64,000 nt of DNA, from contig OZ024743.1 of assembly GCA_964016885.1 (NCBI GenBank), positions 347,386,001 to 347,450,000 of the forward strand. The letters are read 5' to 3'. The notes under the pieces were generated by a model that searched no databases, had not been told where the DNA came from, and worked only from the letters and a program-made list of their open reading frames with translations. The translations under genes and the position numbers were made by a program. Of the stretch, positions 12,430-46,975 are shown one piece after another; within the stretch, counting starts at the first letter, position 1, and each line of letters starts with the position of its first letter. The stretch comes from Eledone cirrhosa (Eukaryota).

Positions 12430-12715
12430 GAATTAGTATATCTAGTAACATATATATGCACACAGATGCATACTTATGCTAGCAAATATATAGGTTTTGT
12501 CTTAGTAACTTTGTGGTTCAATGCATGGGGTTGCAGAACAATAATATGAGAGACGTAAAATAAGAAAATTATAAAATTAACTTACTTACTAAAATTTCAC
12601 TCCCAACTAATTAGTTTCTGAAAGGGAATAAACATACTTTCCGAAGAAGTGTACAGAGAAGCCTTTCGTCATCAGGGAAGTCTATTCTCAGCTAACTTTC
12701 CAGGCAATACGTGGA
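12430..12715 (-). mobile_element. Non-coding HHR-bearing repeat family Z
   Basis: Homologous to 46500-46790 and contains an intact hammerhead motif. Confidence 0.7.
12599..12681 (-). ncRNA. Type I hammerhead ribozyme with extended stem II
   Basis: Minus strand reads ACTTCC-CTGATGA-C-GAAAGG...CCTTTC-A-GAAAC-TAATTA-GTT-GGGAGT. It covaries with the 46829 copy. Confidence 0.8.
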
Positions 12716-12796
12716 ATATTATATAAATATATATATAATATTATATAAATATATATATAATATTCAATATATATATATATATATAATATTATGTTT

Positions 12797-12978
12797 TGGC
12801 AGTATCGGTAGATGGTCTGACGCCATGCTTTGAGACATAGAGTTACGGCCCTTGCCATTCTGAGTTCAAATCCCGCAGAGGTTAACTTTGTCTTTCATCC
12901 TTACGAGGTCGATAAAATAAAGTACCAGTAATGCACTGGGATAATTGCTGGCCTTGTGCCAAAAGTAGAAACAATTAT
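12797..12978 (+). mobile_element. tRNA-derived SINE (octopus-type)
   Basis: A box TGGCAGTATCGG, B box GAGTTCAAATCC and core CTTTCATCCTTACGAGGTCGATAAAATAAAGTACCAG. Six copies in the window. Confidence 0.85.
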
Positions 12979-14182
12979 GTTATATATAATGTTATATATA
13001 GAAGACGACGCGGGTCTAAGGAAATTTAAATCTAAGGGGAAACAATACAAAAATTTAAAAAACAAAACAAAATAAAGAAATACACTCCTCAAACTCACAA
13101 ATGATGAAATTAATAAAAATGAAATTATAAATTATTCTAGGAGCAACTCATTTCAAAATTTGTGATATTTACTTCAAGCAACATGTCTCTGTATTGCATT
13201 GTTCCAAATATGGTGTTGGCTTACTTTTCCAATTTCCCCTATACTTCATTTCTCAATCGTTAGTCCACTTCAGTGGCTTTTATTATCATCTCTGATTTCA
13301 TAAATGTACATTATATACCTACGTTGATTTTTAGAATGTAGAGGTATTTTGATCAATATTTCACATATCAGATTTTAGTATTTATTTTATATTTGTTTTC
13401 CAATATTTCGCAATTCATGATAAAAGAGCACAAACTTTCATTTCATAAAAGAAAAAAAAAAATGAAATATTAAAATGTTCTTATGCAGAGGACAACTTTC
13501 TGATATTGCCTGCATTTATTACTCTGTATCTTTAGGTTATTGTGAAGTAGCGTAAATTTACTAAAACTGTATCGAGAGGCCACATTATTTCTTCTTTTTT
13601 TTTCTTCTTTTAGTGGGAGGAAGTCAAGGGCAACTGATTTTGCGAAACACACATGAAGTCAGTAATGTGATGTTTTATACACATATATTTTATGACATAC
13701 ATACATGCATTCATATATACATACATACACACACGCAAATATACATACGCATATATATATATCTATATATCTATATATATATAATGTGTAAGTGTGTGTA
13801 GGGTTGTGTGCATGTGTATATGTGTGTGAGTGTGTGTATCTGTGTGAGAGTATGTGTGTGTCTGAGTGTGTCTGTATTCGTGTGAATTGTTCGTGGTACC
13901 GAGACAAGCATATTAATATACGGATGTTTAGGTACAAATTTCGCATAGATATATATTAACATTTTATAATAAGGGTTTTTTTTTCTTTTTGAAGGAAGCC
14001 TCAATGTATGGGAAATACAAATAATAATTGTATAGTTCCGATGAAGTACCCTAAGAGAAGAGGAAAGCTGGGACAAAACCAGTGGTGTGAAATAATGCAG
14101 GAAGAATCATTGTCGCTGCACTGAAATTACTAATGTTATATATAGTAGTATATATATATATATATATATATATATATATATA

Positions 14183-15100
14183 TGACTAAAGGAACTTTAG
14201 CCTGATAATGGGGCTTAGAACCCTCAGATAAATGGAAAAAGATGAGTATTGACGTACATGGGAGTCTAACACACATCTTTGGTTATCGCGACCACTGTGC
14301 TACCATTACACCAACACATCACCCATCTCTTTCCATTCAAATTAGAAGCTACATTCTTAGCGAGTTTAAATGGCAAGTAAGTATGTTTTGAAACAGTGAG
14401 CAGGTTTGAAATTAGAAAATAGAATAGCTTTCACCGTATTTTTGACTAAAGGAATTTTAGCCTGATAATGGAGTTTAGAACCCTCAGATAAATGGAAAAA
14501 AGATGAGTATTGAGGTACATGGGAGTCGAACCCACATCTTTGGTTATCGTGACCACTGTGCTACCATTATACCAACATATCACCCATCTCTTTTCATTCA
14601 AATTAGAAGCTACATTCTTAGCGAGTTTAAATGGCAAGTAAGTATGTTTTGAAACAGTGAGCAGGTTTGAAATTAGAAAATAGAATAGCATTCACCGCAT
14701 TTTTGACTAAAGGAATTTTAGCCTGATAATGGGGTTTAGAACCCTCAGATGAATGGAAAAAGATGAGTTTTGACATACATTATTCAAAAATACGGTGAAA
14801 GCTATTCTATGTTCTAATTTCAAACCTGCTCACTGTTTCCAAACATAGTTACTTGCCATTTAAACTCGCTAAGAATATAGCTTCTAATTTGAATGGAAAG
14901 AGATGAGTGATGTGTTGGTGTAATGGTAGCACAGTGGTCGCGATAACCAAAGATGTGTGTTAGACTCCCATGTACGTCAATACTCATCTTTTTCCATTTA
15001 TCTGAGGGTTCTAAACTCCATTATCAGGCTAAAATTCCTTTAGTAAAAAATACGGTGAAAGCTATTCTATTTTCTAATTTCAAACCTGCTCAGTGTTTCA
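14183..15100. repeat. Tandem ~260-bp units (2.3 copies) plus an inverted ~1.2 copies, each full unit with a tRNA-like module
   Basis: TGACTAAAGGAA at 14183, 14443 and 14704. Inversion begins at ~14785. Flanked by (TA)n/(CA)n. Confidence 0.9.
14510..14582 (-). other. tRNA-like cloverleaf / Pol III type-2 promoter within the tandem unit (not a functional tRNA call)
   Basis: Minus strand has A box TGGTATAATGG, D-arm, TGGT/ACCA stem and B box GGTTCGACTCC. Copies at 14249-14321 (-) and 14908-14980 (+). Confidence 0.6.
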
Positions 15101-15228
15101 AGACACACACACACACACATATATATATATATATATATATATATATATATATATATATATATATGTATATGTATATGTATATAATATATATATATGTGTG
15201 TTTTTTATATATATATATATATTTATTA

Positions 15229-44630: not shown

Positions 44631-45826
44631 TATATTTATATATGTATATATATATATATATATATATATATATATATATATATATATATATATATATATA
44701 TATATATGTATATATGTATGTATGTGTACGTATGAAATGTGCGTGGGTATGTATGTGTGTATCTATATATGTATATATATATATATGTATGTGTATATAT
44801 TTATATATATATAAGTGCGTGTGTATGTATTTGTATGTGTATATATATATATATATATATATATATATATATATATATATGTGTGTGTGTGTGTGTGTTT
44901 ATGTGTTTGTATGTATATATATTTATGTGTGTGAGTTTATTTATGTTTATATTAATTTTATATATGGTTCTATGTATGTGTTTACGTATATAGTTGTGTG
45001 TATGCATTTGTATATATGCTTTTGTTTTTGTCTGTATAGTGTTACGTATGGTTTTGTATTATGTGCGAGTGCGCGCACGCATGTGTATACGTTTGTACGT
45101 AGGCTTTGTACCAATGCTCTTTTTTGTCGGGTTTATGTGTGTGTTAGTATATTTGGTTGTATGCATGTTTTTATATACGTGTGTATTCGTATTTTACACA
45201 CATGTGTATGTGTATGTGGATATGACGTATGTTTATTTTATATTTTATATTTTTATATTGTAGTGTATATATATGTGTGTGTGTATATATGTATATGTAT
45301 AAACACATACATTTGTGTATGTGTTTTTATATGTGTGTGTATGAGTGTTTGTGCATGTTTTTGTGTGCGTGTGTATGTATGTGTGTATATATATATATAT
45401 ATATGTATATATATTTTATATACATATATATTTATGTATATGCACACCTCGTGTATTTGTTTATTTTTAATTGTTTCCCCCCCCCCTCTCACTTATTGTT
45501 GTTAACACGTATCTTTTATTTTTAACTTTATTTTTTGTTCTTATTCATTTATTTATTTAATCTTATTACTTAATGTATATGTATGTGTATGTATTTTGTC
45601 CATGCCTGTAGATACATATACCCTTATGTAACAAAGTATACGTCTACGTACTTTTTAAGTAGATGCGCGTGGTTGACTGTTTGTATGTTTATATATTTAT
45701 TGTTTTCATATATATGTATTTTTCTTTTTTTCTCTCTCCTTCCTCTTCGCCCGTTGTTTCCTCAGCCTCACATTCATATTTCTTATATTTTGTTTTCAAA
45801 TCCATATTTAATAAAAACACCATGTT

Positions 45827-45891
45827 TTATTCATTCTGACTACTGAAAACAGATATATCTGCTTTCAAGAAACCACTGGTATATGAAATAA
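45827..45891 (+). ncRNA. Hammerhead-like motif with a G8-to-T change, probably at the 3' end of the 43720 PLE
   Basis: TTATTCATT-CTGACTA-C-TGAAAACAG-atatat-CTGCTTTCA-A-GAA-ACC-ACT-GGT-A-TATGAAATAA. Confidence 0.55.
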
Positions 45892-45968
45892 TTATATTAT
45901 GTTGTTTATTACAAAACTATATATATATATATATATATATATATATATATATATATGCATACATATAC

Positions 45969-46290
45969 ATTAATATAGACAATGAAGATTATTTTACATG
46001 TATTTAGATTTGTTATTGAATATCGATCTGTTATGCGCGTTTCGTGGAGGATTGTCTCTGGGTTTACTCATAGACTTTATGGACCCGAATCATTTAAAAT
46101 CTGCTCTTCCGACTGAGGATTCGACAATCAGTATGACGCATCGCCAGTCTCAAGAGCAGATCGATAATAGAGTCGTGTCCATAACTTCTATGGGTGACTC
46201 TGAGCCTGTCCTCTGCGGAACGCTCCTAACAGGTCGATACACAATAAAAATCTAAATACATGTAAATGATATATCATCGTTGTTATTAAT
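45969..46290 (+). repeat. ~320-bp imperfect rod-like hairpin
   Basis: Arms ~45993-46115 and 46145-46266. Many differences between arms are G.U-compatible on the + strand. Confidence 0.8.
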
Positions 46291-46499
46291 ATATACGGCC
46301 TGCCAGTGCATAGAGTGCTTGTTTTAATACCACGACCAATATTTCACTGCATCGCATACACAATGTATATATATATATATATATATATATATATATATAT
46401 ATATATATATATATATATATATATATATATATATATATATATATATATATAGAGAGAGAGAGAGAGAGAGAGAGAGCGAGAGAGAGATAGAGAGAGAGA

Positions 46500-46975
46500 G
46501 AATTAGTATATCTACCAACATATGTATACAGATGTATACCCATGCTAGCAAATATACATGTTATGTCTTAGTACCTTTGTGGTTCTATACAGGGGGATGC
46601 AGAACAATTATATGAAAGACGTAAAATAAGAACATTTAAAAAATTAAAAATTAAAAATTAACTTACTAAAATTTCACTCCAACTAATTAGTTTCTGTAAG
46701 GGAACAAATATAGTTACGTAACGTAACTATAGAGAATTCCCTACGTCATCATGGCGTCTTTTCTCAGCTAAGTTCCCAAGCATTGCGTGGACTCTAGGAA
46801 CCCATATAAAAATAATAGCTGAGAATAGACTCCCTGATGACGTAAGGAATTCTCTATAGTTACGTTACGTAACTATATTTGTTCCCTTACAGAAACTAAT
46901 TAGTTGGAGTGAAAATTTTAGTAAGTAAGTTAATTTTTAATTTTTAAAATGTTCTTATTTTACGTCTTTCATATA
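46500..46975. mobile_element. Family Z fold-back (arms 46609-46770 / 46816-46975)
   Basis: Inverted duplication homologous to 12430-12715, ending at (TA)n. Confidence 0.85.
46829..46910 (+). ncRNA. Type I hammerhead ribozyme with extended stem II
   Basis: ACTCC-CTGATGA-C-GTAAGG...CCTTAC-A-GAAAC-TAATTA-GTT-GGAGT. Confidence 0.8.

What the first reader, a model, noticed from the sequence alone, without database searches (positions are those of the whole stretch)
12599..46910. Hammerhead family Z with a long branched stem II showing compensatory changes between two copies
Seen: the copies at 12599-12681 (-) and 46829-46910 (+) keep CTGATGA and GAAAC-TAATTA-GTT. Stem I changes from ACTCC/GGAGT to ACTTCC/GGGAGT (paired indel). 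Stem II changes from GTAAGG/CCTTAC to GAAAGG/CCTTTC (T-A to A-T). The distal insert differs in sequence but remains a hairpin (TATAGTTACG/CGTAACTATA versus a UUCG-capped stem). Inference: this is selection on RNA structure, i.e. a real ribozyme with an unusually large stem II domain.
Basis: partly seen in the sequence, partly recalled or inferred. Interest (0 to 1): 0.75.

Follow-up and report, generated by a model that had tools for sequence, protein, structure and literature searches.

The report
Long-armed hammerhead in Penelope-borne retrozyme
The two sequences are copies of a 540-base non-coding repeat present over 6,000 times in this animal genome; it carries a hammerhead ribozyme fold with an unusually long arm whose base pairing is kept while its letters change, and it likely cuts its own RNA and is likely spread by Penelope-type jumping-gene enzymes.

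Summary
Observation confirmed; a third, core-damaged copy lies inverted at 46676-46757. The copies belong to a 507-572 nt ORF-less repeat unit with one type I hammerhead each and at least 6,064 exact-core copies in about 15 subfamilies. Selection on RNA structure is well supported: stem IIa shows all four Watson-Crick pairs at one position and at least 5 independent double changes on a tree, whereas 27 of 37 copy-private changes break pairs. Stem II is not branched: 6 bp, an internal loop, then a variable hairpin. The loop's UUCUC can pair with GAGAA upstream of stem I (98% paired, one compensatory change; a rival pairing exists). A palindromic helix III points to cleavage as dimers. Insertions end in (TA)n at two fixed sites, and 61 of 61 two-armed inverted insertions use one of each, a Penelope-type footprint. 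Verdict: a non-LTR retrozyme (non-autonomous Penelope-like element) with a new variant hammerhead architecture that Rfam misses. Cleavage, expression, circles and the partner element are not shown. The scan already noted similar families, perhaps this one, on other DNA of this genome.

The parts
46829..46910 (+). Type I hammerhead, subfamily A; predicted cleavage after U46905 (GUU)
46842..46890 (+). Stem II domain: stem IIa 46842-46847/46885-46890, internal loop, distal hairpin 46855-46877; unpaired C46841 and A46891 at its base
46821..46854 (+). Candidate loop-loop pseudoknot: GAGAA 46821-46825 with TTCTC 46850-46854 (inferred)
   Evidence: rival pairing
46894..46905 (+). 12-nt palindrome around helix III; predicted dimer helix
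46816..46974 (+). Right arm of a two-armed insertion; 5'-truncated, ends at site S1 (about 65 nt past the cleavage site) in (TA)n
46497..46817 (-). Left, inverted arm of the same insertion; ends at site S2 (about 180 nt past the cleavage site), then (CT)n and (TA)n
46676..46757 (-). Third hammerhead copy, with a C3-to-A core change and a stem I mismatch; likely dead
46507..46556 (-). Long AUCU-loop hairpin just before end site S2; candidate reverse-transcription start signal (inferred)
12599..12681 (-). Type I hammerhead, subfamily B; predicted cleavage between 12605 and 12604; candidate pseudoknot strands 12689-12685 and 12660-12656
12424..12715 (-). Single-armed, 5'-truncated insertion of subfamily B (about 290 nt of the unit), ending at S2 in (TA)n; S2 hairpin 12437-12490

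Best explanation
The motif is a type I hammerhead fold inside a 540-nt ORF-less repeat unit that is likely a non-autonomous retroelement (non-LTR retrozyme) copied by a Penelope-like, probably Hydra-type, enzyme. Shown: the unit, its copy number, its tandem and inverted layouts, the covarying stems and the two fixed ends. Inferred: tandem copies are transcribed; a lone hammerhead is predicted to be off (core paired with helix III) and two copies pair through the palindromic helix III to cut at GUU; the long stem II likely serves as a tertiary arm whose internal loop (UUCUC) docks on GAGAA beside stem I; unit RNAs, probably circular or uncut multimers, are then reverse transcribed from both ends of a cut in (TA)n, one end starting at S1 and the other at S2, giving inverted, 5'-truncated arms.
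For: Unit 507-572 nt, median 544, 83 distinct monomers; longest ORF 27-64 codons in the 9 clean representatives of 14. 6,064 exact-core matches vs 0 control. Named structure on 20 subfamily representatives: 97.5% of 519 cells paired, 7 of 26 pairs with double change, 0 of 500 shuffles reach the covariation score, slid controls 37-55% paired. Tree from sequence outside the ribozyme places at least 3 independent double changes at stem IIa pair 2 and at least 2 at pair 5 (read by eye). Copy-private changes in stem IIa: 27 of 37 break the pair, 0 double. Pseudoknot 98 of 100 cells paired, G-C to A-U in subfamily H. Dimer through helix III is favoured over two monomers in 14 of 15 subfamilies with the core held free. 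219 of 225 ends fall at S1 or S2 in microsatellite; 61 of 61 and 59 of 62 (3 S1+other, none S1+S1 or S2+S2) two-armed insertions have one of each. Arms of one insertion are of one subfamily: 40 of 50 within 8% vs 10% for other arms, and the other 10 share the stem IIa type. 92 of 201 loci hold a complete unit between two cleavage sites (overlapping loci not merged). Inverted copies, a tail at one end only and (TA)n targets are PLE hallmarks (PMC8557442); two internal RT start sites explain the tail (PMC11167929). An abundant PLE with 713-aa open frames, DKT and CxCx5C motifs and (TA)n ends is in the same genome.
Against: No cleavage, expression or circle was shown. The A before GAAA departs from the PLE hammerhead consensus, and predicted folds are hindered: monomer core sequestered by 2.5-4.6 kcal/mol, and in the dimer A14 can pair with U17. 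In the anole PLE the hammerhead is not needed for insertion in vitro. The pseudoknot rests on one compensatory event; a rival stem I extension using the same GAGAA is 91% paired and also has one double change in subfamily H. No autonomous PLE sharing this unit's ends was found. Private substitutions show no A>G strand excess (31 vs 56 T>C, p 0.23), so there is no editing scar of an RNA stage. Helix III and core invariance cannot covary and were partly imposed by my search patterns (checked).
Confidence: 0.72

Rival explanations
1. The element is a PLE-mobilised non-autonomous RNA, but the hammerhead fold is kept mainly as a protein-binding or folding signal and cuts little or only with protein help; uncut multimeric RNA is the template.
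For: Mismatch at the base of stem II, GUU site and self-sequestered core. Anole PLE hammerhead cuts only with protein, is dispensable for insertion, and no reads end at its site (PMC11167929). 8 of 9 Xenopus elements did not cleave. No insertion end falls at the cleavage site.
Against: All catalytic core positions and the helix III palindrome are fixed across about 15 subfamilies 72-92% alike; GUU sites are common in PLE hammerheads and a mismatch at the base of helix II is compatible with cleavage (U.U in axolotl).
Confidence: 0.18
2. The unit is the pseudo-LTR of an autonomous PLE that I did not sample, and the copies are its truncated ends.
For: End structure is that of PLEs; retrozymes resemble pLTRs in Xenopus. 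One locus joins a PLE endonuclease fragment to the unit in the same orientation (L131).
Against: Upstream of the hammerhead the unit runs into the next unit, not into an ORF, in 92 of 201 loci, with arrays of 16-18 units per 10 kb; the L131 PLE is cut inside its ORF; other PLE hits near the units are at unrelated positions.
Confidence: 0.07
3. A DNA-level repeat (satellite or MITE-like) whose hairpins arise from inversion or gene conversion, with no selection on RNA.
For: Long tandem array on C12; inverted layouts; no editing scar.
Against: Paired strands lie across an unpaired internal loop and keep G.U wobbles on one strand only; hammerhead core fixed; strand-specific ends at fixed distances from the cleavage site with variable 5' truncation; no terminal inverted repeats of fixed length.
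Confidence: 0.03

Closest known systems
Metazoan non-LTR retrozymes (Cervera and de la Pena 2020, PMC7229834, parts 2-4 of 6 read; Li, Clavereau, Pollet 2026 preprint 10.64898/2026.07.22.740005, parts 1-3 of 5 read)
   Same: ORF-less, low-GC tandem units with one type I hammerhead each, thousands of copies, coexisting with PLEs; weak palindromic helix III; a mismatch at the base of helix II in axolotl HHR_Amex2.
   Different: Unit is 540 nt (170-400 nt in the 2020 paper, within the 51-972 bp range of the preprint); helix II carries an internal loop and a second hairpin; two fixed ends and obligate S1+S2 two-armed insertions are not described in the parts read; circular RNA not shown here.
Minimal hammerheads of Penelope-like elements (Cervera and de la Pena 2014, PMC4209133, parts 1-2 of 4 and supplement file 2 part 2 read)
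   Same: Extra nucleotide after A9, conserved G-C first pair, 6-bp helix II base, 4-6 bp helix I, palindromic helix III, frequent GUU site, inverted pairs 100-700 bp apart.
   Different: An invariant extra A before GAAA (one row of their Fig. S3 core column reads AGAAA, so rare, not unprecedented); helix II domain of about 50 nt against short hairpins in the rows seen; candidate loop-loop pairing, whereas min-HHRs have a poorly defined loop 1.
Atypical type III hammerheads of toad and termite HDV-like RNAs and Diptera (PMC7936874, passages) and pseudoknot hammerheads (Perreault 2011, PMC3088659, passages)
   Same: One long helix made of a short stem, an internal loop and a capping hairpin, whose 5' loop strand pairs by Watson-Crick pairs with the other helix's loop.
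   Different: Mirror image: there the long arm is helix I of a type III ribozyme; here it is helix II of a type I ribozyme and its partner is the open helix I strand.
PLE insertion mechanism: Poseidon PAc (Frangieh 2024, PMC11167929, parts 1-2 of 4 read); Hydra clade (Craig 2021, PMC8557442, passages)
   Same: Two internal start sites downstream of the hammerhead, next to a stem-loop; tail at one end; inverted 5'-truncated copy; (TA)n targets.
   Different: Tail about 115-120 nt rather than 30-40; ends share AT microhomology with the target; no ORF.

Membership tests
Hammerhead ribozyme, type I | Core CUGANGA ... GAAA ... NUH at a three-way junction with open helix I | tested here: met
   248 of 265 copies have CTGATGA intact, H17 is U in 263 of 265
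Hammerhead ribozyme, type I | Helix II joins the core directly (at most one extra base after A9; C11.1 next to G12) | tested here: not met
   Extra A before G12 is fixed: 32 matches with another base there and 3 with both positions changed vs 6,064; the base after A9 is C, or A in one subfamily (423 non-C matches)
Hammerhead ribozyme, type I | Match to an Rfam hammerhead model | tested here: not met
   No hammerhead family among 6 matches at E<=10 on 46550-46975; none in the 150 of 299 rows shown for the whole window
Hammerhead ribozyme, type I | Helices supported by covariation | tested here: met
Hammerhead ribozyme, type I | Tertiary contact between helices I and II | tested here: inconclusive
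   5-bp candidate 98% paired with one double change; rival 91% with one; does not extend beyond 5 bp in most
Hammerhead ribozyme, type I | Site-specific self-cleavage | not testable with these tools
   needs an in vitro assay
Non-LTR retrozyme | Tandem ORF-less units with one type I hammerhead each | tested here: met
Non-LTR retrozyme | No LTR, PBS or PPT layout; GC below 50% | tested here: inconclusive
   GC 0.34-0.38 and no LTR layout; PBS and PPT were not searched for
Non-LTR retrozyme | Expressed as linear and circular unit RNAs | not testable with these tools
   only contigs with no library record were available
Non-autonomous Penelope-like element | Partial tandems, inverted 5'-truncated copy, tail at one end, microsatellite target | tested here: met
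Non-autonomous Penelope-like element | 3' end similar to an autonomous PLE of the same genome | tested here: inconclusive
   No similarity to the one PLE family examined (30 loci); other PLE families of the genome were not examined

The most novel reading that the evidence does not exclude
A new type I hammerhead architecture in which helix II is a 50-nt arm that docks by an internal-loop Watson-Crick kiss on helix I, compensating a mismatched core and switching from an off monomer to an on dimer; carried by a circular RNA that a Hydra-type RT dimer copies from both ends of a (TA)n break with a strict one-S1, one-S2 rule, stuttering out (CT)n at S2.
Probability: 0.35. Interest if true: 0.65.

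Novelty: new variant of a known kind. Interest (0 to 1): 0.45.

Why it matters
It widens the natural hammerhead fold to a form that Rfam models miss, so such families are under-counted. About 15 subfamilies give a ready set of natural compensatory variants for testing a loop-loop contact and dimer-dependent cleavage. The strict pairing of two different end sites in inverted insertions gives a direct, testable constraint on how Penelope-type enzymes make their inverted ends and one-sided tail, which the papers read call unresolved. It is not a new kind of system.

Tried and rejected
No RNA holder listed for the unit; the runs were contigs without library record, laid twice: they show the family in three study codes, with only 1-4 contigs in organisms B and C, and say nothing on expression. 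Rfam: only microsatellite and hairpin-driven miRNA hits below threshold. Pfam found nothing on the three PLE frames, so the Hydra label rests on motifs from PMC8557442. The protein atlas did not hold the PLE protein. The chance control was faulty (0 hits even in the real window) and was redone. The internal-template tally at the end failed (window too short); template heads come. 'Branched' stem II rejected. Triple-helix reading of the internal loop considered and dropped: no parallel match in subfamily H (by inspection). Extension of the pseudoknot to 7 bp rejected. RNA-editing scar: none. Shared start hairpin with the Hydra-type PLE or the second family: none evident by single-sequence folding. 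L131 and L091 PLE junctions: single cases, not taken as partner evidence. Lunse 2017 (PMC5785218) is not held and the supplement of PMC7229834 could not be read; both may hold similar variants. Rows dropped before counts: 30 of 299 hammerhead copies without intact upstream sequence and 4 mis-anchored; subfamily K and 5 unassigned copies were left out of the private-change count.
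Full report
Observation. Both motifs are present as described. A third copy with a damaged core lies inverted 70 bases from the second. A descriptor needing core, helix I, five helix II pairs and the first helix III pair finds these 2 copies in the window and none in 50 Markov simulations. Rfam has no hammerhead match here. The 12599 copy alone folds no better than shuffles, so two copies could not have carried the claim.

The element. The window lies in a 3.0-Gb animal assembly; earlier notes call it a cephalopod, which I did not test. 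DNA searches with three subfamily copies each hit the candidate cap or near it (2047, 2048, 1450). A core pattern gives 6,064 exact matches, 0 for the reversed control; a pattern for two further subfamilies gives 750, overlapping in part. Between successive cleavage sites lies a unit of 507-572 nt (83 distinct), GC 0.34-0.38, without a long ORF, with representatives 72-92% alike. 92 of 201 loci hold a full unit, and an array on C12 has 16, 18 and 18 units in three 10-kb stretches.

Structure under selection. From 299 copies, 265 were kept and sorted into 15 subfamilies plus 5 unassigned. On 20 representatives the named structure is 97.5% paired with 7 of 26 pairs changed on both sides; no shuffle of 500 reaches the covariation score and slid controls fall to 37-55%. 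RNAalifold recovers stems Ia, IIa and IIb unaided. Stem IIa pair 2 is A-U 8, U-A 7, G-C 3, C-G 2; pair 5 is G-C 12, U-A 6, unpaired 2. On a tree of 45 rows built from upstream sequence these need at least 3 and 2 independent double changes (some forks are open). Copy-private changes behave oppositely: 27 of 37 break the pair and none is double. Selection therefore acted on the source copies that were propagated, not on inserted copies. Stem II is unbranched: 6 bp, an internal loop of about 7 by 7 pyrimidine-rich bases, and a distal hairpin whose sequence and length vary freely but whose base stays paired (3 of 3 pairs with double changes).

Core oddities. An extra base follows CUGAUGA (C; A in subfamily D) and an extra A precedes GAAA; only 32 + 3 matches lack that A. 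The first is the PLE consensus; the second is rare (one row of Fig. S3 in PMC4209133). GUU is common in that figure. The 12-nt palindrome around helix III has only scattered single changes (58 matches, some unrelated). Folding predicts that a lone copy pairs its core with helix III, 2.5-4.6 kcal/mol below the active fold, and that two copies form the double hammerhead through a 10-bp helix, though A14-U17 pairing competes. Dimer cleavage is the known mode for such motifs.

Why a long arm. The loop's 5' strand UUCUC is complementary to GAGAA just upstream of helix I in 98 of 100 cells; in subfamily H both change together to GAAAA/UUUUC. This is one event. The same purines can instead extend helix I (91 of 100 cells, broken in 6 of 20 at one pair, also one double change in H). 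I put the pseudoknot at about even odds. A mirror-image design is known and active in type III hammerheads (PMC7936874), and about 40% of hammerheads use pseudoknots (PMC3088659).

Mobility. Of 225 ends, 114 lie at S1 (45-95 nt past the cleavage site), 105 at S2 (160-215 nt) and 6 elsewhere, all in microsatellite by the way they were defined. 5' ends are variable and usually meet an inverted arm. 61 of 61 two-armed insertions by one method and 59 of 62 by another have one S1 and one S2 end; none has two alike. Both arms come from one subfamily. A 21-pair hairpin with 4 doubly changed pairs ends just before S2. Runs of 3 or more CT occur at 27 of 105 S2 ends and 1 of 114 S1 ends: 17 of 25 have 4 or more units in subfamily A, whose template has two, 0 of 19 in B, 6 of 21 have 3 or more in C. 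RT stutter at S2 fits best; later slippage is not excluded. These are PLE hallmarks. The window's own PLE (16414-17991) belongs to a large family with open 713-aa frames, DKT and CxCx5C motifs like the Hydra clade, a hammerhead-like motif and two (TA)n ends, but shares no end sequence with the unit, so the partner is unidentified. Arms that cross one or more cleavage sites need a circular or uncut multimeric template; the data do not separate the two.

Against. No RNA data; no editing scar; hammerheads of this kind often cut poorly or not at all in vitro.

Literature. Searches. None listed a type I hammerhead with this helix II or a cephalopod retrozyme paper, but the library lacks subscription papers, Lunse 2017 and one supplement. 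Seen: preprint 10.64898/2026.07.22.740005 parts 1-3; PMC7229834 parts 2-4; PMC4209133 parts 1-2 and supplement part; PMC11167929 parts 1-2; PMC11300833 part 1; passages of PMC8557442, PMC3088659, PMC6765202, PMC7936874, PMC3138052; PMC1636495 searched with no hit. Hammerhead numbering and the term twin priming are recalled.

Earlier notes. My reading was logged before any note was seen (no look-alike). One search showed that the scan has described several two-armed retrozyme families in this genome, one of 518-601 nt with an oversized hammerhead that may be this family or a sister. These are unchecked and not used as support; two gave leads that I tested.

Verdict. Real feature; new variant of a known kind; interest 0.45.

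Noticed in passing
window 34929-34989(-), 55057-55121(-), 55158-55222(+): A different hammerhead family with an 8-bp AT-rich helix I, a 10-bp helix II with a C.C mismatch and a GUA/AUA-type site; the two at 55 kb form an inverted pair.
   Followed up: no
window 10505-10555(+): A further hammerhead-like motif with a long helix III.
   Followed up: no
window 16414-17991(+), with fragments at 20069-20782(-), 62030-62494(-); L224-L253: Hydra-like PLE, 75,233 first-look candidates, several open 713-aa frames. Its 3' region has a hammerhead-like motif with CAGAAGA in place of CUGANGA and a U.U at the base of helix II, then two (TA)n end sites.
   Followed up: partly
L145-L163: An unrelated retrozyme-like family (unit about 440 nt, most of 3,099 pattern matches) with a 3-bp helix II, GUC site and the same extra A before GAAA; so this core variant recurs in the genome.
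   Followed up: partly
G000:C12:24461600-24508000 (L254-L256): Long head-to-tail array of the unit, at least 46 kb if continuous; 45 of 52 counted units have an intact core.
   Followed up: partly
L131:900-1290 and L091:43-1135: PLE fragments abut 5'-truncated units of subfamily D, once in the same and once in opposite orientation; template switch or chance insertion.
   Followed up: partly
unit interior, e.g. L131:1335-1352; window 46799-46812 and 46921-46931: A conserved E-box-like GTCACGTGATTG, a TATA-like tract on the antisense strand, and splice-donor-like GTAAGT just past the cleavage site; possible promoter or intron signals (labels recalled).
   Followed up: no
window 29686-29925 and 4491-4610: Long perfect hairpins around (TA)n that draw spurious miRNA matches; probably other two-armed insertions.
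   Followed up: no
rows C2:113829291, C5:120897739, C17:26086602, C9:30335600: Rare distant relatives with a similar long helix II, the extra A and different palindromic helix III; useful for testing the pseudoknot further.
   Followed up: no
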